From a virus: 32,635 nucleotides of DNA. The stretch's first letter is position 1, and every line of letters starts with the position of its first letter. Of this stretch, positions 7,048-31,056 are shown piece after piece. The stretch lies in UHGV virus genome UHGV-0186667. One strand, given 5' to 3'. A program made the translations under genes and the position numbers. The notes under the pieces were generated by a model. It searched no databases, was not told the origin of the DNA, and saw nothing but the letters and a program-made list of their open reading frames with translations.

Positions 7048-7139
7048 TTACGCGGGTTAACAATTCGTGCTCTTAATAATACCAGGCATATCAGGCTGAT
7101 GAACGTAAAAAAACGTTTTACATCAGTAAGATTATTATA

Positions 7140-7159
7140 TACTGTAAATATAAACAGTG
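7140..7159. promoter_or_regulatory. LexA box (SOS operator)
   Basis: TACTGTAAATATAAACAGTG contains a perfect CTGT-N8-ACAG with an AT-rich spacer, 43 bp upstream of the ATG at 7200. Confidence 0.7.
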
Positions 7160-7199
7160 GTTATATTTACAGTATTGCTTTGGTGTCATAGGAGGAAAG

Positions 7200-7388: not shown

Positions 7389-7399
7389 GGTGACTTTTT

Positions 7400-7633: not shown

Positions 7634-7903
7634 GAAACGTTGCTGGCGTCTGAACTTGCTTCTGGCGTCAGCAAGGTTGAACAACGAGCTATGCGAGGCG
7701 TTAGTGTCAATTTGTTACCTTAACCACTATATATGCCAGGAAATTAACAGTTCTTAAGAAACAGCTTGCATGATCGAGCGCATTGAACTTAAGTTTAAGT
7801 AACGCAATCAACAGATGATATTGTTGTCTAAATTTTAAAGATAATCTGTTGAGGTTGTAGGCGTCGGAGTGTAGACTTCCGCGCCATGTGAAAAGGGGGA
7901 GTT

Positions 7904-8119
7904 ATGTCAAGCATCGCCGCATTTAGCCTGGGTAACCCAGTTGAACGTCTGGCAAGGGTTCTTAAAGAGAACCAGGACAAACTCAATCTTAGTAAAGATG
8001 GTTTTGTGTCCGTAGACTTGTCTAACAAAAGAGCAATGGATGCCATCAAGGCACAGATGGATAAGCTTGAAGGCATCAAAACGAGCACTGTAAAAGAGAA
8101 AACTAATAGAACCAGATAA
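7904..8119 (+). CDS. Hypothetical small soluble protein, first gene of a two-gene cargo operon
   Basis: 71-aa ORF with strong SD AAGGGGGAG 4 nt upstream; its stop overlaps the next start (TAATG). No recognisable family. Confidence 0.5.
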   Translation: MSSIAAFSLGNPVERLARVLKENQDKLNLSKDGFVSVDLSNKRAMDAIKAQMDKLEGIKTSTVKEKTNRTR

Positions 8120-8961
8120 TGGCAACATTACTTTTAGCAGTGATTTTGGTTAGTGGTTTTATTTATGTAAACCTATCACTTTCAACAAGATACCGATATA
8201 AGCGTTCCAACGGCTGGGACGCTTATTTTTTTGTGGCTGCCTGGGGTATCGTTTTTTTTCTCCTTGGCGGTTTTTTCACCTTTATTTTGAACGTCAGCGG
8301 AGGGTTTCGTTGGCTGGCTAATGCCTTGAATCTAACACCTGACAGTTTTAATGGCATGTTGTCTTCATCGAAAGACAAACTTCAAAGAATAAATGAAATC
8401 AAACAGATAGCATGGGTTATGATTTCAATTGTCCTCGCTGCGATTTCAGGTTTTGGAAATAAGTTACGCACATCACGTGGAGATCGTCGTTGGGATGCCT
8501 TAGCTAAAGCTGTGGGTAATAACGCTTTCGAATCATTACTCATGGAAGCGTCCGCAAGACAGTTTCCGATCATAGCAACTCTGTCGTCTCGCAAAATCTA
8601 TGTTGGTCTTGTTACTTGTCCGGCGTTAGAAAACGGGCTTTCAGAGCACCTTGAACTTCTCCCGATGTTAAGCGGATATCGGGATAAAGATGATCTAACG
8701 ATTAGTATCACGACTAACTATCACCAACATTATCTTGATAGTGGTGTGATAAGTGGAATGTCTCGGCTTAATATCGAAGATTTCCGTGTGCTCATACCAA
8801 AAGATGAGGTTGAAACAATTTCGTTTTTTGATACTGAGACATATAACAAATTTAAAGAAAATGAAGCCAGGGATAGAAAGAACTGTCGAAAGATTGATAG
8901 TAAAAGTGCATCTTCGCGCAGCAAGCGTGCAGCAGATGCTGAGTCAAATGATCGTGCATGA
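8119..8961 (+). CDS. Hypothetical membrane protein with three predicted TM helices and a soluble C-terminal domain
   Basis: 280 aa. Hydrophobic segments at about aa 3-19, 35-57 and 96-112; C-terminal ~170 aa soluble with a basic tail. Visibly AT-rich compared with phage core genes. Confidence 0.6.
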   Translation: MATLLLAVILVSGFIYVNLSLSTRYRYKRSNGWDAYFFVAAWGIVFFLLGGFFTFILNVSGGFRWLANALNLTPDSFNGMLSSSKDKLQRINEIKQIAWVMISIVLAAISGFGNKLRTSRGDRRWDALAKAVGNNAFESLLMEASARQFPIIATLSSRKIYVGLVTCPALENGLSEHLELLPMLSGYRDKDDLTISITTNYHQHYLDSGVISGMSRLNIEDFRVLIPKDEVETISFFDTETYNKFKENEARDRKNCRKIDSKSASSRSKRAADAESNDRA

Positions 8962-9078
8962 CTATGCTGCATGAGATCGCATGATCGTTTGAGGATCGTT
9001 TTTGCTAGGGCCCGCCAGAACTGGCGGGCTTTCGCGTAGATCATGCACCTGCATGAAAACTACTACATAAAGCGGGCA

Positions 9079-9097
9079 GGCGTGGCGGGGATACGAG
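9079..9097. other. Candidate cos (cohesive-end) site
   Basis: GGCGTGGCGGGGATACGAG shares its first 13 nt with the 19-nt cohesive end of phage 186 as I remember it (GGCGTGGCGGGGAAAGCAT). Lies between hairpins and a 16-bp palindrome. Confidence 0.3.
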
Positions 9098-9198
9098 CGC
9101 GCGCAACAGTGTAACAATCTGGATCTAATGTGATATAGTTACTGTAAATATTATTAACTATTCTTATATGCATTATTAAATATTTTAATGGAGCGTTT

Positions 9199-10872
9199 AT
9201 GGAAAAATATCAAGATGAGGAATATGTAGATGATTTAACTGAGCGTGTTTTTCTCATTAAGCAACAACTGGAAGCGGGAAAACTAAAAATAGCTCATCAT
9301 CTTGTAGAAGGTTTTATTGAAAGTTTTAAAAGAATAAGGCTGCGACAGGATGGTAAAGTTGACCCTTCTACTGTTGATGGCAGAATAAGGGCTATGGGAG
9401 CAGCGGTTAATCACTTTTTAGAAAGAGAAGATATAAAAAACAAATACTCTATTCAGGACTTGCAAAGTTCTTACTTTAATATTCTTTTTAGTAATTTTGG
9501 CGAGTTGTTTTATCTGATGAAAAAAACTAATGCAACGCCACATAAAGCATCAAGTTTTTTTTCTCAACAAGAAGAATATGTTAAGCAAATAGAAGATATT
9601 TTTCCTGAGTTATATAATCAGGTAATAGAGTTTTGGCAGGTAACATCCGATATTGGTGTAATACATTTGCAGGATGGTTCTCAGTTTAAAGCTAATTTTT
9701 CTGGTGACTTATTTCCTGCATTTGATGAGAATGCTGTCTCTATTGCAGGGTTGTATGTTGATACTATTTCACTTCCATGTCCTATATTAAGAGTCGGTCG
9801 TCTCTATGAAAAGTCAGATAAGGCTGAGTTTACAAGGATACTTCTGAAGCATGTCCTAACATGTATGACATATAAAGAAGTAGCGCTTGAAGATATAGAG
9901 CCAGCAATAGTATTAATTTTGCCGGATAGAAGAGATTTTGAAACTGAGAGCAAAAAAAATTTGATGAGTTTTTGTGAGCCTTATGCTCTGACTCATGCGC
10001 AATATCTCTATGATCGACGGTTCGAAAGCTACGATGAATTTCGAGATTTTAGTTATTCGATGAATGATATTGATGCTGTTCTTAAAAATATTAAGAGAGC
10101 AGATAGACTTATTTTTGATACAGCATGGGGGCTAAATCCAAAAACTCAATTAGAAAAACTACTATCTGATAAAAAAAGAATATCACGTAATGTTGTTGGT
10201 GATCATGCTGGAATGGAGGTTTTCCTTTCCTGCATTGGAAGAATGCCGCAAGCCTATTCAGCAAAATGTAATGCACAAGAACTTGGTAGTACTCCATATA
10301 TAAATGCAGACACATCTTGGCTCTATTATACTTGGCTTATTGAGTACGAATCTCTTAATTTTGATGTCAATGATATTGAACTAAAAAATTTGCATATGGT
10401 TCATGCGTTATCTGCTGGTATGCAAGATGGTTTTTCATGGTTAGGAAATGTACCGGTCAATAAAATAATTGAGTTGAGACGTAACAAATTGATGGAGGAT
10501 GTAAGATCCATCTTATCAAATGGTGTTGACTCTTTAATCAATTCTTCGGCAGAGAGCTTTTCGAGGACAACGCAAAAAGTAATTGATAATGTAGACCGGG
10601 CTTTTATTGAACATCAAAGGATTCTTGCAAAAGCCCAAAAAGAGAAATTGAGAATTTACGGACTAGATGTCCTACCATGTATCGCAAATGGTGCTATAGC
10701 AATTGCTGGAGCGCTGACTGGCAATACTACTTTAACGGCGTTAAGTGCAGGCCTTGGAGTAATAGGTATTCCGAGTATTAGTGATATCAAATCTAAATTT
10801 AAGCAGAGGCAAGAGAAGCTTGATGCCTATCAACGTTCTGTTACAGGTATACTCTTTAGCCATAAATCTTAA
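9199..10872 (+). CDS. Hypothetical 557-aa cargo protein with C-terminal hydrophobic Gly/Ala-rich segment
   Basis: Long uninterrupted ORF, strongly AT-rich, SD GGAG 5 nt upstream. No Walker A, no YxDD, no recognisable catalytic motif. C-terminal stretch IANGAIAIAGALTGNTTLTALSAGLGVIGIPSI looks membrane-inserting. Confidence 0.7.
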   Translation: MEKYQDEEYVDDLTERVFLIKQQLEAGKLKIAHHLVEGFIESFKRIRLRQDGKVDPSTVDGRIRAMGAAVNHFLEREDIKNKYSIQDLQSSYFNILFSNFGELFYLMKKTNATPHKASSFFSQQEEYVKQIEDIFPELYNQVIEFWQVTSDIGVIHLQDGSQFKANFSGDLFPAFDENAVSIAGLYVDTISLPCPILRVGRLYEKSDKAEFTRILLKHVLTCMTYKEVALEDIEPAIVLILPDRRDFETESKKNLMSFCEPYALTHAQYLYDRRFESYDEFRDFSYSMNDIDAVLKNIKRADRLIFDTAWGLNPKTQLEKLLSDKKRISRNVVGDHAGMEVFLSCIGRMPQAYSAKCNAQELGSTPYINADTSWLYYTWLIEYESLNFDVNDIELKNLHMVHALSAGMQDGFSWLGNVPVNKIIELRRNKLMEDVRSILSNGVDSLINSSAESFSRTTQKVIDNVDRAFIEHQRILAKAQKEKLRIYGLDVLPCIANGAIAIAGALTGNTTLTALSAGLGVIGIPSISDIKSKFKQRQEKLDAYQRSVTGILFSHKS

Positions 10873-10878
10873 TGTAGA

Positions 10879-10907
10879 GGGCCGAGGTATTCGGCCCTTA
10901 GTTTTAT
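10879..10907. terminator. Hairpin terminator between the 557-aa gene and the portal gene
   Basis: GGGCCGA (10879-10885), loop GGTAT, TCGGCCC (10891-10897), then TTAGTTTTAT. The T-tract overlaps the portal stop codon. Confidence 0.45.
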
Positions 10908-11935
10908 ATGAAACTGTATGGCATGAATTTTATTATGTCATCTTTGAGCCATTTATTGAGTTCTTCTATTCTGTTTTGTAGCGGTATCAATTCATTACGC
11001 ATAAAAACCTTACTAGCCTTCTCCACATCCCCAAATCCCCCAACATTATTCGGCATTATCCCCATCATTTGCGGCGGCACTCGGTGTGCTGCCATCATGT
11101 CATCCCGGCTCACGTTCTTGATATTCAAAAATTCATCCTTTGCCGCGACTTCTGATAACGGGATGATTTGAAGCCCGTCCTTTTTGCCGTTAGGCGAGTA
11201 CATAAACAGATTGCGGAAGTTGCCTGGACCTTTGGCGCTTTTCATTGCGTTGCGGAGGTTGTTCACATCCTCCTGGTTCTGCGCGGTATCGGTCATGTAC
11301 ATGATGAAGCCTGCATGGCTGCCGTTGATGTAATACTTACGGCGGAACAGCGTGGCGGACTCGTTGAGCAGGGCTGACGGAATGGCAGAAAGATAGCCGG
11401 GCAGGCCGTAGATCTCCTGGTTAATGTCCGGTTCCATCAGATGAAAAATGCTGCCTTTCGTGAACTGATACGGCTGGGTTGTCATACCGTATTGCACAAA
11501 CCAGTAGGTATCCAGGTCTAACCCGCGTCGGGTGTATTTTGCCAGAGCAGGCTCAAGGGCGATAACTTCACCGAAGCGGTTCGTGCGTTTCTCCAGGTAG
11601 GCGTTACCAAATACCAGATAGTCCTGCACAAAACGTGAAAAAGCCTGCTGGCTGAGCAGCGGATGGGGGATGTAGGTACTGGTCAGAATGTTGCATTTCA
11701 CCGCAATTGGTGAACTGTGATGCACGGCGGCGCGGAAGGTGCGTGCCAGTCCGTCAAAGCTTACTGGCGGCTCATACCAGCGATCTGTCTGTACGCATTC
11801 CACATAGTCCAGTAGTTCGCGGCGGTCCAGAACAGGAACGGGATCACCGAAGCTGAATGCTTCGGCTGTAGTTTGACTTTTATGCTGGATCTGGTTCGTC
11901 GACGCAGCGCGGTTCTTCTTACTCTTTCCCATCAA
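10904..11935 (-). CDS. Q: Portal protein (P2 gpQ)
   Basis: 343 aa (P2 Q is about 344), minus strand, immediately downstream of the terminase gene. Confidence 0.85.
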   Translation of the reverse strand: MMGKSKKNRAASTNQIQHKSQTTAEAFSFGDPVPVLDRRELLDYVECVQTDRWYEPPVSFDGLARTFRAAVHHSSPIAVKCNILTSTYIPHPLLSQQAFSRFVQDYLVFGNAYLEKRTNRFGEVIALEPALAKYTRRGLDLDTYWFVQYGMTTQPYQFTKGSIFHLMEPDINQEIYGLPGYLSAIPSALLNESATLFRRKYYINGSHAGFIMYMTDTAQNQEDVNNLRNAMKSAKGPGNFRNLFMYSPNGKKDGLQIIPLSEVAAKDEFLNIKNVSRDDMMAAHRVPPQMMGIMPNNVGGFGDVEKASKVFMRNELIPLQNRIEELNKWLKDDIIKFMPYSFI

Positions 11936-19716: not shown

Positions 19717-20295
19717 ATGAACGCACAATTAACCGAAATCATGCGCCTTATCACCAACCTGATTCGCACAGGGGTAGTCACCGAAGTGGACAGGGAAAAC
19801 TGGCTTTGCCGGGTGAAAACGGGCGAGCTTGAAACCAACTGGATTAGCTGGCTGACGCTGCGTGCCGGGAATGCCCGCACATGGTGGCGACCATCGGAAG
19901 GTGAGCAGGTGGTGCTGCTGAGTCTGGGCGGCAATCTGGAAACCGCCTTTGCGCTGCCCGCTGTCTATTCGAATCAGTTCGCACCACCGTCGACGTCGGC
20001 GGACGCCTGCGTGACAGAACATCCTGACGGTGGCTGGTTTGAATACGAACCCGCCACCGGGCGCTGGTATGTCAGGGGCATCAAATCAATGGTCATTGAA
20101 GCCGCTGACAACATCACCATGAAAACCAGTGAGTTTGTACTGGAGGCTGACCACACGCGTATTAACAGCGAAGTGGTGATCAATGGTGGCGTTACCCAGG
20201 GCGGCGGAGCGATGAGTTCTAACGGGATCGTGGTTGATGCGCATCAGCATACTGACGTCCTGAAAGGCGGCGATACAACCGGAGGCCCGGTATGA
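19717..20295 (+). CDS. V: Baseplate spike protein (P2 gpV)
   Basis: 192 aa; N-terminal region aligns by eye with P2 V (IRTG, WLTLRAG..RTWW.PS.GEQV). Confidence 0.85.
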   Translation: MNAQLTEIMRLITNLIRTGVVTEVDRENWLCRVKTGELETNWISWLTLRAGNARTWWRPSEGEQVVLLSLGGNLETAFALPAVYSNQFAPPSTSADACVTEHPDGGWFEYEPATGRWYVRGIKSMVIEAADNITMKTSEFVLEADHTRINSEVVINGGVTQGGGAMSSNGIVVDAHQHTDVLKGGDTTGGPV

Positions 20296-20651
20296 CGCTT
20301 TATATCGGGATGAACAATACCAGCGGTAAAACCATTACTGATATTGACCATCTGCGTCAGTCGGTGCGGGACATTCTACTGACACCGCAGGGTAGCCGCA
20401 TTGCCCGTCGTGAATATGGTTCCCTGCTGTCGTCGCTAATAGACCAGCCACAAAATCCGGCATTACGCCTGCAGGTCATGTCGGCAGTGTATGTGGCGCT
20501 GAGTCGCTGGGAGCCACGGATGACGCTGGATTCCATCACCATCAACAGCAATTTTGACGGTTCAATGGTGGTGGCGCTGAGCGGGCGGCGTAATAACGGT
20601 GTGCCTGTTTCCCTTTCCGTATCAACAGGAGCAGAGAATGGCAGTGATTGA
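20292..20651 (+). CDS. W: Baseplate wedge protein (P2 gpW)
   Basis: 119 aa (P2 W is about 115). Confidence 0.8.
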   Translation: MTLYIGMNNTSGKTITDIDHLRQSVRDILLTPQGSRIARREYGSLLSSLIDQPQNPALRLQVMSAVYVALSRWEPRMTLDSITINSNFDGSMVVALSGRRNNGVPVSLSVSTGAENGSD

Positions 20652-21546
20652 CCTTTCGCAGTTGCCTGCGCCGCAGATTGTGGATGTGCCGGACTTTGAG
20701 ACGCTGCTTGCCGAACGCAAGGCCGAATTTGTTGCGCTTCACCCGAAAGATGAGCAGGAAGCAGTGATCCGCACGCTGGAACTGGAATCTGAACCCGTCA
20801 CCAAATTGCTGCAGGAGAACGCTTACCGTGAGTTGCTTCTGCGCCAGCGCATTAACGAAGCCGCGCAGGCTGTGATGGCGGCTTACGCGATGGGCAGCGA
20901 TCTTGACCAGCTCGCTGCCAACTACAACGTAAAACGCCTGACGGTGACGCCTGCTGATAATGACGCTGTGCCGCCCGTTGCAGCTGTGATGGAAAGCGAT
21001 GAAGCGTTACGCCTGCGTGTGCCTGCAGCCTTTGAAGGGCTTTCAGTTGCGGGGCCAACTGCAGCTTATGAATTTCATGCCCGAAGCGCCGACGGTCGGG
21101 TGGCGGATGCCAGTGCAACCAGCCCGGCACCTGCAGAGGTGGTGCTGACTGTCCTTAGCCGCGAAGGCGATGGAACTGCAGAAAAAGACCTGCTGGACGT
21201 GGTGGAAAAAGCTCTGAACAGTGAGAACGTCCGCCCGGTGGCTGACCGTCTTACGGTTCGCAGCGCAGAAATCATCCCGTATCGCGTGGAAGCCACCATT
21301 TTTCTCTATCCTGGACCGGAAGCAGAGCCGGTAATGGCAGCGGCAAAAGCCAGCCTGCAGAAGTACATCGCCAGTCAGACGCGTCTTGGTCGGGATATTC
21401 GCCGTAGCGCCATCTTTGCCGCCCTGCATGTTGAGGGTGTGCAGCGTGTGGAGCTGGCTTCTCCTCTGGCGGATGTGGTCCTGAACAAAACACAGGCGGC
21501 ATCATGTACGCAGTGGAGCATAACCAACGGAGGAACGGATGAATAG
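20638..21546 (+). CDS. J: Baseplate protein J
   Basis: Start set to ATG 20638, giving 302 aa, the same length as P2 J; overlaps the W stop. Confidence 0.8.
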   Translation: MAVIDLSQLPAPQIVDVPDFETLLAERKAEFVALHPKDEQEAVIRTLELESEPVTKLLQENAYRELLLRQRINEAAQAVMAAYAMGSDLDQLAANYNVKRLTVTPADNDAVPPVAAVMESDEALRLRVPAAFEGLSVAGPTAAYEFHARSADGRVADASATSPAPAEVVLTVLSREGDGTAEKDLLDVVEKALNSENVRPVADRLTVRSAEIIPYRVEATIFLYPGPEAEPVMAAAKASLQKYIASQTRLGRDIRRSAIFAALHVEGVQRVELASPLADVVLNKTQAASCTQWSITNGGTDE

Positions 21547-22144
21547 TCTGCTGCCACCGGGTTCAACACCACTGGAGCGCCGACTGGCGCAAACCTGCAG
21601 CGGGATTTCTGATCTGCAGGTGCCGCTTCGTGATTTGTGGAATCCGGCAACCTGTCCGGTCAGTTTCCTGCCTTATCTCGCCTGGGCGTTCTCTGTGGAT
21701 CGCTGGGACGAGGGCTGGACAGAAAGCGTCAAGCGCCAGGTGGTGAAGGATGCTTTTTATATTCATCAGCATAAAGGGACCACCAGTGCCGTGCGGCGGG
21801 TGGTGGAGCCGTTCGGATTCCTGATCCGCATTATTGAGTGGTGGCAGACCGGAGAGGCACCGGGCACGTTTCGCCTGGATATCGGCGTGCAGGACCAGGG
21901 CATCACTGAAGATACCTATCTGGAACTTGAGCGACTGATAAGCGATGCCAAACCATGTAGCCGCCACATGATCGGCATGTCCATCAATCTGCAGACCAGC
22001 GGCCCGCATTGGGTGGGAGCCGCCAGCTATCTTGGCGAAGAAATCACGATCTATCCGTATATCAACGAAACAATTATTTCCGGCGGCACCGCGCATGAAG
22101 GCGGGGCGGTCCATGTTATTGACACAATGAGAGTGAATCCATGA
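21539..22144 (+). CDS. I: Baseplate protein I
   Basis: 201 aa between J and the tail fibre gene. Confidence 0.8.
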   Translation: MNSLLPPGSTPLERRLAQTCSGISDLQVPLRDLWNPATCPVSFLPYLAWAFSVDRWDEGWTESVKRQVVKDAFYIHQHKGTTSAVRRVVEPFGFLIRIIEWWQTGEAPGTFRLDIGVQDQGITEDTYLELERLISDAKPCSRHMIGMSINLQTSGPHWVGAASYLGEEITIYPYINETIISGGTAHEGGAVHVIDTMRVNP

Positions 22145-23544
22145 GCACAAAATTTTATACCCTGCTGACGGATATTGGCGCGGAGAAACTTGCCAGCGCC
22201 GCCGCGCTCGGTGTGCCGCTAAAAATTACCCATATGGCGGTGGGCGATGGTGGCGGAACATTGCCGACGCCGGACGCAAAGCAGAGTGCACTGGTAAATG
22301 AGAAACGTCGGGCTGCGCTGAATATGCTCTATATCGACCCACAGAACAGCAGCCAGATTATTGCTGAACAGGTGATCCCTGAAAACGAGGGCGGTTGGTG
22401 GATACGTGAAGTGGGCCTGTTTGATGAATCCGGGGCATTGATTGCCGTGGGAAACTGCCCGGAAAGCTATAAGCCGCAACTGGCTGAAGGTAGCGGGCGC
22501 ACTCAGACCGTGCGCATGGTGCTGATTACCAGCAGCACGGACAATATCACCCTGAAAATCGACCCTGCTGTAGTGCTGGCAACCCGCAAGTATGTGGATG
22601 ACAAGGCACTGGAGCTGAAGGTGTACGCGGATGATCAGATGGCAAAACATCTTGCCGCACCGGACCCGCATTCACAGTATGCACCCAAAGAAAGTCCGAC
22701 GTTTACCGGGACACCCAAAGCGCCAACGCCAGCAGCAGGGAATAACACCACGCAGATTGCGACCACCGCGTTTGTTCAGGCGGCTCTGACGGCTCTTATT
22801 AATGGTGCGCCAGCCACGCTGGACACGCTGAAAGAAATAGCCGCAGCCATTAACAATGATCCGAAATTCAGTACCACCATTAACAATGCACTGGCACTGA
22901 AAGCGCCGCTGTCGAGTCCGGCACTCACCGGAACGCCAACCGCACCTACTGCGGCACAGTCGGTCAACAATACACAGATTGCCACCACGGCATTTGTGAA
23001 ATCGGCGATTGCGGCAATGGTGGGTTCTGCACCTGCGGCACTGGATACACTCAACGAACTGGCGGCGGCACTGGGGAATGACCCGAACTTTGCCACGACA
23101 ATGCTTAATGCACTGGCAGGTAAACAACCGCTGGACAATACGCTGACTAATTTGAGTGGAAAGGATGTAGCTGGTCTTCTCACATACCTTGGTTTGGGAG
23201 AAGCAGCGAAAATGCCTGCTGCGACAGCATTAGCCAGCAGTGCAGGTAACATCACTATTCCAGTATTAATTGGTGGAGTACAACGAACAGCATTGCTTCA
23301 GTGGAAGACGCTATCAGTGCCGCAATCTACCGACGGTAATATGGTCGTTGTTGATGGCTCATGGCCGGTTGCCTTTCCTAATGCTTGCCTTTCCATCAAT
23401 CCTTCGCTGGTCAATTCTGTGATCTACGCGACTAATGGAGCCCCTTTTGTTAGCGCAGCGATTGTTGACCGGGTCAAATTCAAAGCCGCTTGCGCATACA
23501 CGAAATCTAATTCAACAGTGGCAGTATGGGGAGTGGGATATTAA
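22141..23544 (+). CDS. H: Tail fibre protein H; the C-terminal ~118 aa lie inside the invertible segment
   Basis: N-terminus resembles P2 H (MAVGDGGG) and later blocks (NDPNFATTMLNALAGKQP) match P2 H repeats. The crossover site sits at codons YLGLGE. Confidence 0.8.
   Translation: MSTKFYTLLTDIGAEKLASAAALGVPLKITHMAVGDGGGTLPTPDAKQSALVNEKRRAALNMLYIDPQNSSQIIAEQVIPENEGGWWIREVGLFDESGALIAVGNCPESYKPQLAEGSGRTQTVRMVLITSSTDNITLKIDPAVVLATRKYVDDKALELKVYADDQMAKHLAAPDPHSQYAPKESPTFTGTPKAPTPAAGNNTTQIATTAFVQAALTALINGAPATLDTLKEIAAAINNDPKFSTTINNALALKAPLSSPALTGTPTAPTAAQSVNNTQIATTAFVKSAIAAMVGSAPAALDTLNELAAALGNDPNFATTMLNALAGKQPLDNTLTNLSGKDVAGLLTYLGLGEAAKMPAATALASSAGNITIPVLIGGVQRTALLQWKTLSVPQSTDGNMVVVDGSWPVAFPNACLSINPSLVNSVIYATNGAPFVSAAIVDRVKFKAACAYTKSNSTVAVWGVGY
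23177..23202. repeat. Inversion crossover site (gix/hix-like), left
   Basis: TTCTCACATACCTTGGTTTGGGAGAA: two 12-bp half-sites around a central dinucleotide. Its right 14 nt are an exact inverted copy of the start of the site at 25008. Confidence 0.7.
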
Positions 23545-23987
23545 TGGTCGACTATGTATTCAGCCCGACGGAAAATGCTTTTTATCTTGTGGCACTGAAA
23601 TATGATTATTTAACTGCTGGCACATGGCCGTCAGACGGCATCAATATAAATGCTGAAGATGCACTGGTTTTCATGGGAAACGCTCCTGAGGGTAAAATGC
23701 GTGGCATTGGTGATGATGGGTTGCCTTGCTGGGTAGATCTTCCGTCACCTACGCATAAAGAACAACTTGCTGCGGCTGACTCAGAGAAAAAGTCGAGAAT
23801 TGACCATGCCAACGAATACATGAACGGTAAGCAATGGCCTGGTAAAGCAGCTATCGGTCGTCTGAAAGGTGAGGAACTGGCACAATATAATTTGTGGCTG
23901 GATTATCTGGACGCACTGGAGCTGATCGATACTTCCGGTGCGCCAGATATTGAATGGCCTACGCCTCCGGCAGTTCAGGCCAGATGA
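23526..23987 (+). CDS. G: Tail fibre assembly protein (chaperone for the current orientation)
   Basis: 153 aa with C-terminal motif LDYLDAL...WPTPP typical of tail-fibre assembly proteins. Confidence 0.75.
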   Translation: MGSGILMVDYVFSPTENAFYLVALKYDYLTAGTWPSDGININAEDALVFMGNAPEGKMRGIGDDGLPCWVDLPSPTHKEQLAAADSEKKSRIDHANEYMNGKQWPGKAAIGRLKGEELAQYNLWLDYLDALELIDTSGAPDIEWPTPPAVQAR

Positions 23988-24561
23988 CATCCGGCGCTGT
24001 GCTGGTATCTGTTGCCGTCACCGCGTCAATGTAATCCAGCACAGCGTTAAGGCGGATTGTTTCTGCCTGCGTCAGCTTCCGTCCGGCCTGTAATTTCAGT
24101 TGAATCAGACTGATGGAGGCCATTGCAGTATCAATCAGCAACGGGCGCTGTGCTTCTGCTGCATCTACTGCTGCGCCGTGCTGTGCCTCGGTATCTGTCA
24201 CCCATTTCTCACCATTCCATTCATCGTATGGCGTTAACGGGGCGATAGTGGTTGTATTTTCAGGATAATCACCCGGAGCTGTGATTTCTTTCGATTCTCC
24301 TGTTTCGGTGCTATAGACGATTTCACCGCGATGATCTGGCACATATTCCCATGAATTTAAATTCACAGAACGACAGATTGCATAACCAACCTTATGTATG
24401 CCAGGTGCATCAAGACAGGAACATGCCGGAATACCGACACCAACAGCAAGATATTCAGTTGACGTGGAAATATATTCCCGTGTTTCACCATCGTAGTTAT
24501 AAACGGTAACATCCCCTGCCTTTGTTGCAATAAGCTCACTATTTAATATTGCTTTATGCAT
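23959..24561 (-). CDS. Alternative tail fibre assembly protein (for the inverted orientation)
   Basis: 200 aa on the minus strand with C-terminal motif LDYIDAV...WPELP; convergent with G and overlapping it by 29 nt. Confidence 0.7.
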   Translation of the reverse strand: MHKAILNSELIATKAGDVTVYNYDGETREYISTSTEYLAVGVGIPACSCLDAPGIHKVGYAICRSVNLNSWEYVPDHRGEIVYSTETGESKEITAPGDYPENTTTIAPLTPYDEWNGEKWVTDTEAQHGAAVDAAEAQRPLLIDTAMASISLIQLKLQAGRKLTQAETIRLNAVLDYIDAVTATDTSTAPDVIWPELPEA

Positions 24562-25021
24562 CAGGCTGCCCTCACGATATAGTTAAATGCAATATTACGC
24601 GGACGGTTTTCGTTTGCAGTTGGAACAACTCTGGAAGCATCAAATGTTACTCGCTTTGCATAACCACCTTTAATTGAATCAGATGAAGCATCTCCGATGA
24701 CGCTGGTTGTAAAAGCACCAGAATCAGAAGGATAGGTATTAAACCTGACATCCACTAATGCACCAATTATATTTCGAATGGCATCGCCCTGTGATGAAAG
24801 CAAGCTACGGTTAGTATCAATTCCTCTTCCGTCATCCCAGCCGCGAATAAACTCACCACGTAAATCAGGCAATTTATTTGTCGGGTAAACTTTTGCCAGT
24901 TCCGGGTATTCTTCAGCAGAAAAAGCCGCACCATTGCATTTCAGCCAGCCTGTTGGCGGAGTGGCTGAAGGCCACGGAACAGGGACACCAACAGGTAATG
25001 CAGAGCCTTCTCCCAAACCAA
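24561..25021 (-). CDS. Alternative tail fibre C-terminal exon, fused to H only after inversion
   Basis: Minus-strand frame reads GLGEGSALPVG... through the crossover site, the same GLGE junction as in H. An in-frame ATG exists at 25061, outside the segment. Confidence 0.6.
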
Positions 25022-25033
25022 CGTTTATGAAAA
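25008..25033. repeat. Inversion crossover site (gix/hix-like), right
   Basis: TTCTCCCAAACCAACGTTTATGAAAA; its first 14 nt are the exact reverse complement of the right end of the site at 23177. Confidence 0.7.
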
Positions 25034-25082
25034 TGCAGAGATAACGGCTAACTGGCATCATCTCCGGTTTTTATTCAGGGGG

Positions 25083-25655
25083 ATGATCATGCTTATTGGC
25101 TATGTACGCGTGTCAACAAATGACCAGAACACCGATTTGCAACGCAATGCACTGAACTGTGCGGGATGTGAGCGGATTTTTGAGGATAAAATCAGTGGCA
25201 CCAAGTCCGACAGACCGGGGCTGAAAAAGCTGCTCAGGACACTATCGGCAGGAGACACGCTGGTTGTCTGGAAGCTGGACAGACTGGGGCGCAGTATGCG
25301 GCATCTTGTTACGCTGATAGAAGAGCTGCGCCAGCGTGGCGTGAATTTCCGAAGCCTGACTGACAGTATTGATACCAGCACCCCAATGGGCCGTTTCTTT
25401 TTTCATGTCATGGGTGCCCTGGCTGAAATGGAACGCGAACTGATAGTTGAACGTACCAGGGCGGGGCTGGCTGCAGCTCGTGCTAAAGGCAGAGTAGGTG
25501 GACGCCGTCCTAAGTTGACCAGCGAACAGTGGGCACAGATTGGGCGTTTACTCGAGGCCGGAGAATCAAGACAGCGTATTGCACTGATTTTTGATGTAGG
25601 CGTTTCTACCATTTATCGAAAATTTCCGGCAAATAAGAACAATAAATCTCCCTGA
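25083..25655 (+). CDS. Serine DNA invertase (Gin/Hin/Cin/Pin family)
   Basis: Near-identical to Mu Gin over most of its length (LIGYVRVSTNDQNTDLQRNAL, VVWKLDRLGRSM, MGRFFFHVMGALAEMERELI). True start may be ATG 25089. Confidence 0.9.
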   Translation: MIMLIGYVRVSTNDQNTDLQRNALNCAGCERIFEDKISGTKSDRPGLKKLLRTLSAGDTLVVWKLDRLGRSMRHLVTLIEELRQRGVNFRSLTDSIDTSTPMGRFFFHVMGALAEMERELIVERTRAGLAAARAKGRVGGRRPKLTSEQWAQIGRLLEAGESRQRIALIFDVGVSTIYRKFPANKNNKSP

Positions 25656-26979: not shown

Positions 26980-27495
26980 ATGGCTTTACCACGCAAATTA
27001 AAACACCTGAACCTGTTTAACGACGGGAACAACTGGCAGGGGATCGTTGAGTCGCTGACGCTGCCGAAATTCACCCGCAAATATGAGAAGTATCGCGGCG
27101 GCGGTATGCCCGGAGCGGTGGATGTGGATCTGGGACTGGATGACAGTGCACTGGATACAGAATTTTCCATTGGTGGTACTGAACTGCTGCTGTTTAAGCA
27201 GATGGGCAAAGCCACGGTGGATGGCATCCAGCTGCGCTTTACCGGCTCTATTCAGCGTGACGATACCGGGGAAGTGCAGGCCGTGGAGCTTGTGGTGCGT
27301 GGACGTCACAAAGAAGTAGATTCCGGCGAGTGGAAGACGGGCGAAAGCAACACTACCAAAGTGACCAGTACCAACAGCTACGCGAAGCTGACCATCAATG
27401 GTGAGGTGCTCTATGAAGTGGACCTGATCAACATGGTGGAAATTGTGGACGGTGTGGACCTGATGGAAGCGCACCGCAACGCCCTCGGCCTCTGA
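26980..27495 (+). CDS. FII: Tail tube protein (P2 gpFII)
   Basis: 171 aa (P2 FII is about 172), directly after the sheath gene. Confidence 0.9.
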   Translation: MALPRKLKHLNLFNDGNNWQGIVESLTLPKFTRKYEKYRGGGMPGAVDVDLGLDDSALDTEFSIGGTELLLFKQMGKATVDGIQLRFTGSIQRDDTGEVQAVELVVRGRHKEVDSGEWKTGESNTTKVTSTNSYAKLTINGEVLYEVDLINMVEIVDGVDLMEAHRNALGL

Positions 27496-27549: not shown

Positions 27550-27852
27550 ATGAGCGATAAGCAGACTGAAAAGACCATTCAACTGGATACTCCCATCATG
27601 CGCGGTAAAACAGAAATTACCGAAATTGTGTTGCGTAAACCGCAGTCCGGTGCGCTGCGCGGCACACGCCTGCAGGCCATTATGGATATGGATGTGAACG
27701 CGATGATGACCGTGATCCCCCGCATCTCCAGTCCGGCACTGACTGCACAGGAAATTGCAGAGATGGACCCGGCAGATCTCACTGCCATGTCGGTTGAGGT
27801 TGTCACTTTTTTGTTGAAGAAGTCGGTGCTTGCCGGTTTACCGACAGCCTGA
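27550..27852 (+). CDS. E: Tail assembly chaperone E
   Basis: 100-aa ORF before the tape-measure gene, ending just after a T TTT TTG slippery heptamer. Confidence 0.8.
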   Translation: MSDKQTEKTIQLDTPIMRGKTEITEIVLRKPQSGALRGTRLQAIMDMDVNAMMTVIPRISSPALTAQEIAEMDPADLTAMSVEVVTFLLKKSVLAGLPTA

Positions 27853-27986
27853 CGGTTGACGATCTGGTGGCTGATATCGCCACCATCTTTCACTGGCCGC
27901 CATCCGTTACTGACGTTATGCCGCTGACCGAAGTGCTGGAATGGCGGTATAAAGCGATTCAGAGAAGCGGGGCCAGCCATGAGTGA
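27550..27986 (+). CDS. Tail assembly chaperone E+E' (-1 frameshift product)
   Basis: Reading the -1 frame from the heptamer gives an open frame to TGA at 27984-27986, overlapping the T start (ATG 27979). The zero frame leaves an otherwise non-coding 126-nt gap. Confidence 0.65.
27807..27813 (+). other. Programmed -1 frameshift slippery heptamer T TTT TTG
   Basis: TTTTTTG sits in the zero frame as TTT TTG near the 3' end of E, the same heptamer and position as in P2 E/E'. Confidence 0.7.
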
Positions 27987-30900
27987 CAATAACCTGCGTC
28001 TGCAGGTGATTCTTAATGCGGTTGACAAACTCACCCGCCCATTTCGATCCGCGCAGGCCAGTTCAAGAGAACTGGCTGCTGCTGTCAAAAAATCCCGCGA
28101 TGCAATAAAGCAGCTTGATCAGGCCGGGAGCAGTCTGGACAGCTTCCGAAAGCTGCAGGCAGAAAATCAGAAATTAGGCGACAGGCTGAACTATGCCCGC
28201 CAGCGTGCAAATTTGCTCAGTCAGGAACTGGGAGCGATGGGGCCGCCTTCGCAACGTCAGGTTGTTGCTCTGGGCCGTCAACGGCTGGCTGTTCAGCGCC
28301 TGGAAGAACGCCAGAAAAAGCTGCAGCAGCAGACGGCGCTTGTGCGTGCAGAACTTTATCGTGCTGGTATTTCAGCTAATGATGGCGCCAGTGCGACGGC
28401 CCGCATTACCCGTGAAACGATGCGTTATAACAGGCAGCTTTCTGAGCAGGAAGCGAGGTTACGACGTGTCGGGGAGCAACAGCGAAAAATGCACGCCGCC
28501 CGGGGGGCTTACGCCAGGCGTCTTGAGGTAAGGGATCGTATTGCAGGTGCCGGAGCCACCACCACGGCTGCAGGGCTGGCAATGGGCGCACCAGTGATGG
28601 CGGCAGTAAAAAGCTATACCAGCATGGAAGATGCCATGAAAGGTGTGGCAAAGCAGGTCAATGGTCTGCGTGACGATAATGGCAACCGCACTGCGCGTTT
28701 TTACGAAATGCAGGGTGCCATCAAGGCTGCCAGCGAACAGTTGCCGATGGAAAACGGTGCAGTGGACTTCGCCGCACTGGTTGAAGGTGGTGCGCGCATG
28801 AACGTCGCAAACCCTGACGACAGCTGGGAAGACCAGAAACGTGACCTGCTGGCCTTCGCCAGCACGGCGGCAAAGGCGGCAACAGCCTTTGAACTGCCAG
28901 CGGATGAACTGTCAGAAAGTCTGGGGAAAATCGCCCAGCTCTACAAAATCCCCACCCGCAATATTGAACAGCTCGGTGATGCGCTGAACTATCTGGATGA
29001 TAACGCCATGTCGAAAGGGGCAGACATCATTGATGTGATGCAACGTCTGGGCGGTGTGGCTGACCGTCTGGATTATCGTAAAGCGGCGGCGCTGGGTTCC
29101 ACCTTCCTGACACTGGGCGCTGCGCCAGAGGTTGCAGCCAGTGCAGCAAACGCGATGGTGCGTGAATTGTCCATTGCCACCATGCAAAGCAAGAGTTTCT
29201 TTGAAGGGATGAATCTGCTGAAACTCAATCCTGAAGTGATTGAAAAGCAGATGACGAAGGATGCGATGGGAACCATCCAGCGCGTGCTGGAGAAGGTAAA
29301 CGCGCTGCCGCAGGACAAGCGCCTGTCTGCCATGACTATGTTGTTTGGTAAAGAGTTTGGCGATGACGCGGCGAAACTGGCAAACAACCTGCCGGAACTG
29401 CAGCGTCAGTTAAAACTGACAGCGGGCAATGATGCGCTCGGCTCCATGCAGAAAGAATCCGACATTAACAAGGATTCACTTTCTGCGCAGTGGTTGCTGG
29501 TCAAAACCGGAGCGCAGAACACCTTCAGCAGCCTGGGCGAAACGCTGCGCCAGCCGCTGATGGATATTCTGTACACGGTGAAAAGCGTCACGGGGGCGTT
29601 GCGTCGCTGGGTGGAAGCTAACCCGGAACTGACAGGCACACTGATGAAAGCATCGGCTGTTGTGGCTGCGGTTACCGTCGGCCTCGGCACCTTAGCGGTG
29701 GCGCTGGCTGCAGTGCTGGGGCCGCTGGCAGTGATCCGTCTGGGATTCTCTGTGCTGGGTATCAAAACGTTACCTTCCGTTACGGCAGCAGTAACTCGAA
29801 CCAGCAGCGCGTTGTCCTGGTTAGCTGGCGCACCACTGATACTGCTGCGACGCGGGCTTGCTTCATCGGGCAACGCTGCGGGTTTACTTACTGCACCGTT
29901 GTCATCTTTGCGCCGCACGGCATCACTGACGGGAAATGTCATGAAAACTGTAGCAGGTGCGCCGGTTGCACTTTTGCGGTCTGGATTATCCGGTTTACGT
30001 GCTGTTGCTGTGATGTTTATGAATCCTCTGGCGGTACTGCGCGGTGGACTGGTCGCCGCAGGCACGGTGCTGCGAGTACTGGCATCTGGTCCACTGGCGA
30101 TGCTGCGCGTTGCCCTGTATGCCGTATCTGGTCTGTTAGGTGCTCTGCTCAGTCCGATAGGTCTTGTGGTTACTGCACTGGCGGGCGTGGCGCTGGTTGT
30201 CTGGAAATACTGGCAACCCATCACCGCATTTCTTGGTGGCGTGGTGGAAGGATTCAAAGCGGCGGCAGGTCCCGTCAGTGCAGCATTCGAACCACTTAAG
30301 CCTGTGTTTCAGTGGATTGGCGACAAAGTGCAGGCGCTCTGGGGCTGGTTTACTGATCTGCTGACGCCCGTTAAGTCGACCTCTGCCGAACTGCAGAGTG
30401 CAGCGGCAATGGGGCGGCGATTCGGGGAGGCACTGGCGGAAGGGCTGAATATGGTCATGCATCCGCTGGACTCCCTGAAATCTGGCGTTTCCTGGTTGCT
30501 GGATAAACTCGGCATTGTCAGTAAAGAGGCTGCAAAGGCGAAACTGCCGGAAAGCGTGACGCGTCAGCAACCTGCGACGGTGAATGCAGACGGTAAAGTG
30601 ATGATGCCATCGGGTGGTTTTCCGTCATGGGGATATGGCTTTGCGGGGATGTATGACAGCGGCGGCTATATCCCGCGTGGGCAGTTTGGCATCGTCGGTG
30701 AAAACGGGCCGGAAATTGTTAACGGCCCGGCAAATGTGACCAGCCGGAGAAATACAGCTGCACTGGCTGCCGTTGTTGCCGGAATGATGGGCGTTGCTGC
30801 CGCGCCAGCAGAGCTTCCACCGTTGCACCCTTTGGCACTTCCCGCGAAAGGTGGAGAAGCAATTGTGAGTCGCGCAGCCACTGTGCCGCTCGTTCAACGG

Positions 30901-31056
30901 ATTGAGGCACCGACGCAGATCATCATTCAGACGCAGCCAGGACAAAGTGCGCAGGATATTGCGCGGGAGGTGGCACGCCAGCTTGATGAACGTGAACGCA
31001 GGCTGAAGGCAAAAGCCAGGAGTAACTACAGCGATCAGGGGGGATACGACGCATGA
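27979..31056 (+). CDS. T: Tail tape measure protein (P2 gpT)
   Basis: 1025 aa, largest ORF in the tail operon, helical N-terminal half, hydrophobic Ala/Gly-rich repeats in the middle. Confidence 0.85.
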   Translation: MSDNNLRLQVILNAVDKLTRPFRSAQASSRELAAAVKKSRDAIKQLDQAGSSLDSFRKLQAENQKLGDRLNYARQRANLLSQELGAMGPPSQRQVVALGRQRLAVQRLEERQKKLQQQTALVRAELYRAGISANDGASATARITRETMRYNRQLSEQEARLRRVGEQQRKMHAARGAYARRLEVRDRIAGAGATTTAAGLAMGAPVMAAVKSYTSMEDAMKGVAKQVNGLRDDNGNRTARFYEMQGAIKAASEQLPMENGAVDFAALVEGGARMNVANPDDSWEDQKRDLLAFASTAAKAATAFELPADELSESLGKIAQLYKIPTRNIEQLGDALNYLDDNAMSKGADIIDVMQRLGGVADRLDYRKAAALGSTFLTLGAAPEVAASAANAMVRELSIATMQSKSFFEGMNLLKLNPEVIEKQMTKDAMGTIQRVLEKVNALPQDKRLSAMTMLFGKEFGDDAAKLANNLPELQRQLKLTAGNDALGSMQKESDINKDSLSAQWLLVKTGAQNTFSSLGETLRQPLMDILYTVKSVTGALRRWVEANPELTGTLMKASAVVAAVTVGLGTLAVALAAVLGPLAVIRLGFSVLGIKTLPSVTAAVTRTSSALSWLAGAPLILLRRGLASSGNAAGLLTAPLSSLRRTASLTGNVMKTVAGAPVALLRSGLSGLRAVAVMFMNPLAVLRGGLVAAGTVLRVLASGPLAMLRVALYAVSGLLGALLSPIGLVVTALAGVALVVWKYWQPITAFLGGVVEGFKAAAGPVSAAFEPLKPVFQWIGDKVQALWGWFTDLLTPVKSTSAELQSAAAMGRRFGEALAEGLNMVMHPLDSLKSGVSWLLDKLGIVSKEAAKAKLPESVTRQQPATVNADGKVMMPSGGFPSWGYGFAGMYDSGGYIPRGQFGIVGENGPEIVNGPANVTSRRNTAALAAVVAGMMGVAAAPAELPPLHPLALPAKGGEAIVSRAATVPLVQRIEAPTQIIIQTQPGQSAQDIAREVARQLDERERRLKAKARSNYSDQGGYDA

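What the first reader, a model, noticed from the sequence alone, without database searches (positions are those of the whole stretch)
27807..27986. Conserved -1 programmed frameshift producing E+E'
The heptamer T TTT TTG is in frame near the end of E, and the -1 frame stays open for about 58 codons to a stop overlapping the T start, leaving no real non-coding gap. Same recoding layout as P2 E/E' and lambda G/GT.
Basis: partly seen in the sequence, partly recalled or inferred. Interest (0 to 1): 0.4.

Follow-up and report, generated by a model that had tools for sequence, protein, structure and literature searches.

The report
P2-type E/E' tail chaperone frameshift
This is the textbook -1 ribosomal frameshift that P2-like phages use to make two tail-assembly chaperones (E and the longer E+E') from one start codon, present here in an ordinary P2-like prophage of E. 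coli; it is real and strongly conserved, but already known.

Summary
T_TTT_TTG lies at 27807-27813 in the frame of gene E (27550-27852). The -1 frame then runs 57 sense codons to a TGA at 27984-27986, which overlaps the ATG of tape-measure gene T (27979).

The -1 segment has no start codon between its upstream stop and the heptamer. It matches Pfam Phage_P2_GpE (5.8e-19). The inferred 145-aa fusion aligns without gaps to experimentally defined P2 gpE+E' across the junction (48% identity, 2e-50).

In all 81 diverse genomes examined (window, P2 and 79 species genomes; E identity 36-98%; enterics, Pseudomonas, Burkholderia, Halomonas, sphingomonads), the E' homologue is in the -1 frame and an in-frame TTTTTT[G/A/C] sits at the same place. 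So do 79 of 79 evaluable IMG/VR relatives. The preceding codon always ends in T, although its amino acid varies.

No downstream RNA structure is supported, as reported for P2.

The main rival is the public annotation of E' as a stand-alone 39-aa gene starting at GTG 27867. Against it: there is no Shine-Dalgarno, protein conservation continues upstream of that codon, and five lineages lack a start codon there.

The one mildly new hint is a conserved Shine-Dalgarno-like AGGU 6-7 nt upstream of the heptamer.

The parts
26980..27495 (+). FII, tail tube protein gene (upstream neighbour; context)
   Evidence: Pfam Phage_tube PF04985, 8.8e-60; annotated as phage major tail tube protein in an identical E. 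coli copy.
27550..27852 (+). Gene E, 0 frame, 100 aa (10.9 kDa): tail assembly chaperone, the product of standard decoding
   Evidence: Pfam Phage_TAC_7 PF10109, 2.4e-18; PHROG 103 'tail protein', 7.9e-44; 43% identical to P2 gpE.
27796..27800 (+). Shine-Dalgarno-like GAGGT, 6 nt upstream of the heptamer: candidate 5' stimulator, unproven
   Evidence: The 18 nt upstream of the heptamer pair with the anti-SD at a median of -7.7 kcal/mol against -2.2 for background; 46 of 64 contexts reach -6 or lower against 3.9% of background windows. Codon -4 is NAG in 48 of 49 distinct enteric sequences, against 42-45% NAG elsewhere in the same genes. It is not kept in the non-enteric clade (13 of 29 with NAG GTN).
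27807..27813 (+). Slippery heptamer T_TTT_TTG (Thr86-Phe87-Leu88 of E); site of the -1 shift
   Evidence: It aligns with the P2 heptamer, whose position is annotated as the -1 frameshift site. The T6 run is invariant in 76 of 76 distinct contexts, with Z = G 71, A 8, C 1 among 80 loci. 78 TTTTTTG and 1 TTTTTTA among 79 IMG/VR relatives.
27813..27986 (+). E' segment, -1 frame: 57 codons plus TGA. It is read only after the shift. G27813 is read twice. E+E' = residues 1-88 of E plus these 57 residues = 145 aa, 16.1 kDa
   Evidence: Pfam Phage_P2_GpE PF06528, 5.8e-19. PHROG 1756, 8.1e-22, aligned from residue 3 of this segment. 56% identical to P2 E' over all 57 residues. There is no start codon between the frame-opening stop (27795-27797) and the heptamer. 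Masses.
27867..27869 (+). GTG used by PGAP and most phage records as the start of a stand-alone 39-aa 'GpE family phage tail protein'; most likely just Val107 of E+E'
   Evidence: Annotations. SD pairing upstream is -2.5 kcal/mol, equal to the background median. The Val-Asp-Asp-Leu stretch just upstream in the -1 frame is conserved in 68, 58, 69 and 50 of 74 sequences. The codon is GCA, TTC, CAG or TAC in five lineages.
27979..31056 (+). Gene T, tape measure protein (1025 aa); its ATG overlaps the E' stop (ATGAGTGA, 27979-27986)
   Evidence: Pfam PhageMin_Tail PF10145, 3.1e-18. The overlap geometry is kept in 79 of 79 IMG/VR relatives and in most enteric relatives.

Best explanation
The window is a P2-like (Peduoviridae) prophage of E. 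coli. Ribosomes translating tail gene E reach T_TTT_TTG with tRNA-Phe on UUU in the P site and tRNA-Leu on UUG in the A site. In a minority of passages both tRNAs slip back one base onto UUU-UUU. Translation then continues in the -1 frame from GUU (27813) for 57 codons and ends at the UGA that overlaps the start of tape-measure gene T.

One start codon therefore gives two proteins in a fixed ratio: abundant E (100 aa) and rarer E+E' (145 aa). The shared N-terminal domain is a tail assembly chaperone that coats the tape measure protein T. The E' domain, present only on the fusion, is inferred to recruit the tail tube protein (FII) so that the tube polymerises around T, as lambda gpGT does with gpV.

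Shown here: the sequence layout, homology of both parts to P2 E and E', and conservation of the slip site and frame relation. Taken from the literature on P2 and lambda: that the shift is translational, its efficiency (2-3 times lambda's low level) and the chaperone role. Inferred: that this copy behaves the same way, and that E' binds FII.
For: - **Layout:** the heptamer is in frame, and the -1 frame is open for 57 codons to a stop overlapping the T start.
- **Homology:** E matches PF10109 and the -1 segment matches PF06528. PHROG 1756 aligns from residue 3 of the -1 segment.
- **P2 comparison:** the fusion aligns gaplessly to P2 gpE+E' across the junction, 67/141 identical, 2e-50. The P2 record marks this position as the site of the -1 translational frameshift and calls the product an essential tail protein.
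- **Frame relation:** in 80 of 80 loci with a detectable tail homologue it lies in the -1 frame relative to E. The 81st locus, L031, shows the same by eye.
- **Slip site:** in-frame TTTTTT[G/A/C] is present in 80 of 80 loci. The preceding codon is always NNT, although its amino acid is G, T, S, V or I.
- **Close relatives:** 79 of 79 evaluable IMG/VR relatives keep the heptamer, the 57-codon tail and the ATG overlap.
- **Coding signature:** downstream of the GTG, variable sites by -1-frame codon position are 11, 4 and 22 of 39, and codon differences are 187 synonymous against 78 non-synonymous.
- **Literature:** P2 makes E (91 aa) and E+E' (142 aa) by a -1 shift at TTTTTTG, conserved in Burkholderia P2-like phages and without a hairpin (PMC3091744). 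The lambda G/GT mechanism, and the statement that P2 efficiency is 2-3 times higher, come from PMC5009743.
Against: - No protein or ribosome data exist for this prophage.
- The primary P2 paper (Christie et al. 2002) was not held, so the experimental basis is cited second-hand.
- A start-capable codon (ATG or GTG) sits 18 codons into the -1 segment in 70 of 74 distinct sequences, so some internal initiation cannot be excluded.
- A T6 run could in principle also support transcriptional slippage.
- The structure prediction of the fusion failed (pLDDT 44), so the chaperone fold and the E'-FII contact remain inferences.
Confidence: 0.92

Rival explanations
1. E' is a separate small gene. A 39-aa protein is initiated at GTG 27867, as PGAP and nearly all phage records of this clade annotate it, and no recoding is needed.
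For: It is annotated this way in identical E. coli genomes and in phages 500465-1, RE-2010, MLG42 and ST512-KPC3phi13.6. The 39-aa sequence is on more than 1000 contigs in public collections. The codon at this column is ATG (47) or GTG (23) in 70 of 74 distinct sequences. The Pfam PF06528 model starts exactly there.
Against: - There is no Shine-Dalgarno: -2.5 kcal/mol, the background median, against -7 to -11 for FI, FII, T, U and D.
- In this clade the GTG lies inside a predicted 7-bp stem, pairs at columns 59-65/73-79 of the alignment (about 27865-27885).
- Protein conservation in the -1 frame continues upstream of it to the heptamer: E91 58/74, G93 57/74, V103 68/74, D105 69/74. tblastn and PHROG alignments start at residues 1-3 of the segment.
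- Five lineages carry GCA, TTC, CAG or TAC there.
- This reading cannot explain the invariant in-frame T6 run or the invariant T at the preceding wobble position.
- In P2 the fusion is the defined product.
Confidence: 0.04
2. The frame change is made by RNA polymerase, not the ribosome. Slippage on the T6 run inserts one extra U into a fraction of transcripts, which are then translated normally into E+E' with a Phe-Phe junction.
For: The site is a homopolymer. A one-base insertion gives the same -1 frame. Contiguous 'fused' genes with a TFFVEE junction exist in public assemblies, showing that a T7 version encodes a full-length fusion. Nothing computed here separates the two mechanisms.
Against: From general knowledge, efficient transcriptional slippage in bacteria usually needs runs of about 7-9 or more. 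Here the run is held at six in nearly all lineages and is not lengthened. The last base of the heptamer is G, A or C, each giving an A-site tRNA (Leu or Phe) that can re-pair on UUU. The literature on P2 describes a translational frameshift.
Confidence: 0.03
3. There is no functional recoding in this copy. The heptamer and the open -1 frame are inherited relics in a decaying prophage.
For: The layout alone is not rare: 7% of in-frame positions have a -1 frame open for at least 57 codons, and there are 54 in-frame slippery heptamers in mechanical ORFs.
Against: The whole late operon is intact. The E-T region (551 bases) matches places in 997 of 5426 complete E. coli genomes, and 973 hold at least 80% of it. 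All 79 close relatives that could be evaluated keep every element. The substitution pattern in the -1 frame is that of a translated sequence.
Confidence: 0.01

Closest known systems
Bacteriophage P2 gpE / gpE+E' (-1 programmed translational frameshift in the FETUD tail operon; Christie et al. 2002, as summarised in PMC3091744 and annotated in NC_001895)
   Same: The heptamer T_TTT_TTG is the same and sits at the same aligned codons (Phe-Leu). The operon order FI-FII-E-T-U-D is the same. The E' length is the same (57 codons after the shift). The E' stop overlaps the T start in the same way (ATGAGTRA). Neither has a supported downstream hairpin. Both halves are homologous: 43% identity for E, 56% for E', 48% over the fusion.
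   Different: E continues 12 codons past the heptamer here, against 6 in P2. T is 1025 aa here, against 815 aa in P2. The window belongs to a different genus-level clade; the closest classified phage is Escherichia phage 500465-1, Wadgaonvirus, 96.5% identical over this region. Public records of that clade split E' off as a 39-aa gene.
Bacteriophage lambda gpG / gpGT and the general 'conserved translational frameshift in dsDNA phage tail assembly genes' (Xu, Hendrix and Duda 2004; Levin et al. 1993)
   Same: Two overlapping ORFs lie between the major tail (tube) gene and the tape-measure gene. A -1 slip near the end of the first ORF gives a minor C-terminally extended fusion. The inferred role is a chaperone for the tape measure protein, with the extension recruiting the tube subunit (PMC5009743).
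   Different: The heptamer differs (G_GGA_AAG in lambda, from general knowledge). At E up to 0.01, E matched only PF10109 and the E' segment only PF06528, so no lambda G or T family was hit. The tail here is contractile. P2-type efficiency is reported to be 2-3 times higher than lambda's.
E. coli dnaX tau/gamma -1 frameshift (A_AAA_AAG with an upstream Shine-Dalgarno and a downstream hairpin)
   Same: It is a tandem -1 slip on an X_XXY_YYZ heptamer in the same host translation system. A Shine-Dalgarno-like element lies upstream of the site in the enteric clades.
   Different: The spacing is 6-7 nt here against 10 nt in dnaX (dnaX value from general knowledge). No downstream hairpin is supported. 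The shifted product is longer, not shorter. The proteins are unrelated.

Membership tests
P2-type gpE / gpE+E' tail chaperone frameshift (Peduoviridae) | Located between the tail tube gene FII and the tape measure gene T in an FI-FII-E-T-U-D operon | tested here: met
   ORFs and Pfam hits: Phage_tube, PhageMin_Tail and Phage_P2_GpU flank it. The annotated identical E. coli copy agrees.
P2-type gpE / gpE+E' tail chaperone frameshift (Peduoviridae) | The 0-frame ORF is homologous to P2 gpE | tested here: met
   PF10109, 2.4e-18; 43% identity to P2 E.
P2-type gpE / gpE+E' tail chaperone frameshift (Peduoviridae) | In-frame slippery heptamer T_TTT_TTG near the 3' end of E, at the position aligned with the P2 site | tested here: met
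   27807-27813, phase ACT TTT TTG. A gapless alignment puts Phe87-Leu88 opposite P2 Phe84-Leu85. The P2 site is annotated.
P2-type gpE / gpE+E' tail chaperone frameshift (Peduoviridae) | The -1 ORF is homologous to P2 E', open from the heptamer, and has no start codon of its own upstream of the conserved sequence | tested here: met
   PF06528, 5.8e-19. The -1 frame opens at 27798, and the first start-capable codon is GTG 27867, 18 codons in. Homology to P2 starts at residue 1 of the segment.
P2-type gpE / gpE+E' tail chaperone frameshift (Peduoviridae) | Heptamer and -1 frame relation conserved among relatives despite protein divergence | tested here: met
   81 of 81 loci (79 species genomes, P2 and the window), with E identity 36-98%. 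79 of 79 evaluable IMG/VR loci.
P2-type gpE / gpE+E' tail chaperone frameshift (Peduoviridae) | The fusion protein is actually made and is needed for tail assembly | not testable with these tools
   Needs mass spectrometry or western blots and genetics. Known for P2 only through the literature and the record note.
Lambda gpG/gpGT-type tail assembly chaperone frameshift (general class of Xu et al. 2004) | Two overlapping ORFs between the major tail gene and the tape measure gene, joined by a -1 slip on a heptamer near the end of the first | tested here: met
   Class description in PMC3091744 and PMC5009743.
Lambda gpG/gpGT-type tail assembly chaperone frameshift (general class of Xu et al. 2004) | Sequence membership in the lambda G or T protein families | tested here: not met
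   The Pfam scan at E up to 0.01 returned only PF10109 for E and PF06528 for E'. It therefore works like lambda G/GT but is not a sequence-level member of those two families.
dnaX-type stimulated -1 frameshift | Downstream stimulatory hairpin or pseudoknot | tested here: not met
   z-scores are -1.5, -1.2 and -1.7 for the window, and +0.1 and -1.5 for P2. There are 0 compensatory pairs among close relatives, and the consensus energy is -2.8 kcal/mol across clades.
dnaX-type stimulated -1 frameshift | Upstream Shine-Dalgarno-like stimulator | tested here: inconclusive
   An SD-like AGGU is enriched 6-7 nt upstream in the enteric clades. It is confounded by Glu/Lys-Val codons and shared ancestry, is absent in most non-enteric relatives, and its spacing differs from dnaX.
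Stand-alone 'GpE family phage tail protein' gene (PGAP reading) | Own start codon with a ribosome binding site, and homology beginning at that start | tested here: not met
   The GTG is present, but SD pairing is at background level. Homology and conservation extend 18 codons upstream of it. The start codon is missing in five lineages.

The most novel reading that the evidence does not exclude
In enteric P2-like phages the E/E' shift may not rest on the bare heptamer. A conserved Shine-Dalgarno-like element (GAGGU here at 27796-27800, UAAGGUGGU in P2), 6-7 nt upstream, would pair with 16S rRNA and hold the ribosome over U_UUU_UUG. That would act as a 5' stimulator and could explain why P2-type efficiency is 2-3 times lambda's. 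The wobble base that completes AGG is kept in 48 of 49 distinct enteric sequences, although the amino acid varies (Glu, Lys, Gln).
Probability: 0.25. Interest if true: 0.3.

Novelty: already known. Interest (0 to 1): 0.1.

Why it matters
Biologically it adds nothing new. It is another copy of the P2 E/E+E' recoding signal, the contractile-tail counterpart of lambda G/GT, in a prophage whose E-T region is found in about one in five complete E. coli genomes.

Its practical value is for annotation. PGAP and almost all deposited phages of this clade list E' as a free-standing 39-aa gene, and the correct 145-aa fusion of this clade is absent from a 15-billion-protein collection. The true product is therefore systematically missing from databases, and the Pfam GpE model is truncated at an internal Val/Met.

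The comparative set also gives a clean illustration of synonymous-site constraint at a slip site.

Tried and rejected
- **Downstream stimulatory RNA:** single-sequence folds were not significant. Alignment folds showed no covariation in the close clade and almost no consensus structure across clades. Rejected.
- **Structure of E+E':** AlphaFold2 with a 30-sequence alignment gave pLDDT 44 and pTM 0.32, unusable, so no fold search was run.
- **PDB sequence search** with the fusion found no hit at E up to 1.
- **NCBIfam** returned no family for the fusion.
- **Christie et al. 2002** (PMC135442) is not held, so P2 experiments are cited through PMC3091744, PMC5009743 and the GenBank record.
- **A second candidate from my heptamer scan:** A_AAA_AAG at 5527 in ORF 5246-5563 has a 504-codon -1 extension. 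It is an artefact. That ORF is a spurious frame inside the replication endonuclease gene 4633-7047.
- **Antisense ORF 27579-28088 (169 aa):** no Pfam or PHROG hit, so I treat it as spurious.
- **Codon-position test between the heptamer and GTG 27867:** it is muddied by dual coding with the E C-terminus (variable sites 9, 2 and 10 of 18). I relied on protein-level conservation instead.

Full report
**What is in the sequence**

- Gene E runs 27550-27852 on the + strand (100 aa).
- TTTTTTG occupies 27807-27813 in the phase ACT TTT TTG, which is Thr86-Phe87-Leu88 of E, 12 codons before the E stop.
- The -1 frame is closed by a TGA at 27795-27797 and opens at 27798. From 27813 it runs 57 sense codons to TGA 27984-27986.
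- Tape-measure gene T starts at ATG 27979, so the two overlap as ATGAGTGA.
- The 126 nt that look non-coding between E and T are entirely coding in the -1 frame.
- The +1 frame is full of stops.

**Is it more than chance?**

The layout alone is not. TTTTTTG occurs 16 times on both strands of the window, against 8.6 expected. There are 54 in-frame X_XXY_YYZ heptamers in mechanical ORFs of at least 100 aa, and 7% of in-frame positions have a -1 frame open for at least 57 codons. The case rests on homology and conservation.

**Identity of the parts**

- E matches Pfam Phage_TAC_7 (PF10109, 'tail assembly chaperone proteins E, 41 or 14'), 2.4e-18.
- The 57-residue -1 segment matches Phage_P2_GpE (PF06528), 5.8e-19.
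- The neighbours are Phage_tube (FII), PhageMin_Tail (T) and Phage_P2_GpU.
- PHROG 1756 aligns from residue 3 of the -1 segment.
- The fusion built by reading 27550-27813 and then 27813-27986 is 145 aa. It aligns to P2 gpE+E' (142 aa) without a single gap across the junction: 67/141 identical, 2e-50, with ...VVTFLVEEVGACRF... opposite ...VVGFLVAELGAVTF....
- The P2 RefSeq record annotates E+E' as a joined CDS that 'shares amino terminus with gpE; -1 frameshift; essential tail protein', and marks the site at the base after its own TTTTTTG.

**Genomic context**

The window is a P2-like prophage.

- Early and head genes: integrase, CI, CII, a replication endonuclease, portal, terminase and capsid.
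- Lysis, baseplate and tail-fibre genes follow.
- Then the tail operon FI-FII-E-T-U-D.
- The 551-base E-T region is 100% identical to four complete E. coli chromosomes and matches 997 of 5426 complete E. coli genomes.
- The closest classified phage is Escherichia phage 500465-1 (Peduoviridae, Wadgaonvirus), 96.5% identical here.

**Comparative test**

I collected 79 loci from one-genome-per-species contigs using an E alignment. E identity to the window ranged from 36 to 98%. Hosts included Escherichia, Citrobacter, Enterobacter, Erwinia, Yersinia, Pseudomonas/Stutzerimonas, Burkholderia, Ralstonia, Halomonas, Methylotenera and sphingomonads.

- **Frame relation.** In every locus with a detectable E' homologue (78, plus P2 and the window) it lies in the -1 frame relative to E. 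The one locus missed by tblastn (L031) has the same layout by eye.
- **Heptamer.** All 80 carry an in-frame TTTTTTN at the homologous position: G 71, A 8, C 1. Every variant leaves an A-site tRNA (Leu or Phe) able to re-pair on UUU.
- **Preceding codon.** In 76 distinct sequence contexts the T6 run is invariant. The preceding codon is GGT, ACT, AGT, GTT or ATT, so its amino acid changes but its third base never does. This is constraint at the nucleotide level, not the protein level.
- **Lengths.** The length of E after the heptamer varies from 5 to 22 codons. The -1 extension is 53-76 codons, most often 57.
- **Close relatives.** Among 80 close relatives from IMG/VR (67 distinct sequences), 79 of 79 evaluable keep the heptamer, a 57-codon tail and the ATG overlap.
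- **Substitution pattern.** Downstream of the heptamer, variable sites by -1-frame codon position are 11, 4 and 22 of 39, and codon differences are 187 synonymous against 78 non-synonymous. That is the signature of a translated -1 frame.

**The main rival: a stand-alone 39-aa gene**

PGAP and nearly all phage records of this clade annotate E' as a stand-alone 39-aa 'GpE family phage tail protein' starting at GTG 27867. That 39-mer is on more than 1000 contigs in public data, whereas the exact 145-aa fusion is not in the collection at all.

In favour of that reading:
- The codon at this column is ATG or GTG in 70 of 74 distinct sequences.

Against it:
- Pairing of the upstream 17 nt with the anti-Shine-Dalgarno is -2.5 kcal/mol. 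That equals the background median, against -7 to -11 for FI, FII, T, U and D.
- The -1 frame between the heptamer and that codon is conserved as protein: E91 58/74, G93 57/74, F97 48/74, V103 68/74, D104 58/74, D105 69/74.
- Five lineages carry GCA, TTC, CAG or TAC there.
- It leaves the invariant slip site unexplained.

The Pfam model starts exactly at this Val/Met. This probably reflects seed sequences taken from such truncated annotations.

**Stimulators**

- **Downstream.** No structure is supported. z-scores are -1.5, -1.2 and -1.7 for the window, and +0.1 and -1.5 for P2. The hairpin predicted in the close clade has no compensatory changes and several disruptive ones. Across clades the consensus energy is only -2.8 kcal/mol. 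This agrees with the published statement that P2 E+E' lacks such a structure (PMC3091744).
- **Dual coding.** The near-invariance of 27814-27853 within the close clade is explained by dual coding: the E C-terminus in the 0 frame and the E' N-terminus in the -1 frame.
- **Upstream.** There is a Shine-Dalgarno-like AGGU: GAGGT at 27796-27800 here, TAAGGTGGT in P2.
  - The 18 nt before the heptamer pair with the anti-SD at a median of -7.7 kcal/mol, against -2.2 for background. 46 of 64 contexts reach -6 or lower, against 3.9% of background windows.
  - In the two enteric clades codon -4 is NAG in 48 of 49 distinct sequences, against 42-45% NAG elsewhere in the same genes. Its third-position entropy is 0.25 and 0.0 bits, with neighbours at 1.1-1.7.
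  - Only 13 of 29 non-enteric sequences have NAG GTN, the sequences share ancestry, and the spacing (6-7 nt) is shorter than the 10 nt of dnaX. I record it as a hint only.

**Mechanism and function**

The best-supported reading is a tandem -1 slip of tRNA-Phe and tRNA-Leu from UUU-UUG onto UUU-UUU. It gives E (10.9 kDa) and E+E' (16.1 kDa) from one start codon.

The P2 literature, as summarised in PMC3091744 and PMC5009743, describes a translational -1 shift at TTTTTTG, with efficiency 2-3 times higher than lambda's low level. In lambda, gpG and the G part of gpGT coat the tape measure protein, and the T part binds the tube subunit; neither ends up in the virion. By homology of family (TAC_7) and by position, E and E+E' are inferred to do the same with T and FII. 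That last step is inference.

Transcriptional slippage on the T6 run would give the same frame and cannot be excluded by computation. It is disfavoured because the run is short and is held at six.

**Novelty**

This is the known P2 E/E+E' signal in an ordinary, very common E. coli prophage. The only new value is the annotation correction for this clade and the weak Shine-Dalgarno-like hint. Interest is low.

Noticed in passing
window 23177-25655: An invertible tail-fibre switch that P2 itself lacks. 27-nt inverted repeats (23177-23203 and 25007-25033, 85% complementary; they look hix/gix-like from memory, TTCTCACATACCTTGGTTTGGGAGAAG) flank three genes: a tail fibre assembly gene (23526-23987 +), an oppositely oriented second one (23959-24561 -) and an alternative fibre C-terminus with a Collar domain (24561-25061 -). 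A serine invertase (25083-25655, Resolvase + HTH_7) lies next to the segment.
   Followed up: partly
window 27796-27800, and homologous positions in L004-L082: A Shine-Dalgarno-like AGGU lies 6-7 nt upstream of the slippery heptamer. It is enriched (46 of 64 contexts at -6 kcal/mol or lower, against 3.9% of background). In the enteric clades it is kept at a synonymous position (NAG in 48 of 49) while the amino acid varies. It is not kept in the Pseudomonas/Burkholderia/Halomonas relatives.
   Followed up: partly
proteins P0031-P0067, P0089 (public collection; homologues of window 27550-27986): About 35 contiguous 141-147-aa 'fused' E-E' genes exist in public assemblies, each on 1-9 contigs. 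Their junctions read TFFVEE (T7) or TFVEE, or they carry indels further downstream or upstream. These are probably homopolymer sequencing errors or rare mutants. The correct slip product (TFLVEE) of this clade is absent from the collection.
   Followed up: partly
window 27867-27986 and records CP159639, NC_049342, HM770079, PP599993, MK433577: There is a systematic annotation split. E' is deposited as a free-standing 39-aa CDS from an internal GTG or ATG in every record of this clade that I looked at; only P2-type records carry the joined CDS. In PP599993 the tape measure gene is also mislabelled 'tail fiber assembly protein'.
   Followed up: yes
window 27979-31056: The tape measure protein is 1025 aa, against 815 aa for P2 gpT (19850-22297 in NC_001895). 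If tail length scales with the tape measure, this would mean a longer tail.
   Followed up: no
window 27814-27853: The 40 nt after the heptamer are almost invariant among 22 close relatives that differ by 10-15% elsewhere. This fits dual coding (E C-terminus in the 0 frame, E' N-terminus in the -1 frame) rather than RNA structure, since the predicted hairpin shows no compensatory changes.
   Followed up: yes
window 7100-10900: Between the replication endonuclease gene (4633-7047) and the portal gene (10904-11935, - strand) lie ORFs 8119-8961 and 9199-10872, which I did not examine. In an otherwise related E. coli prophage this slot holds a different cargo, an AAA family ATPase. It is likely a variable cargo or defence locus.
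   Followed up: no
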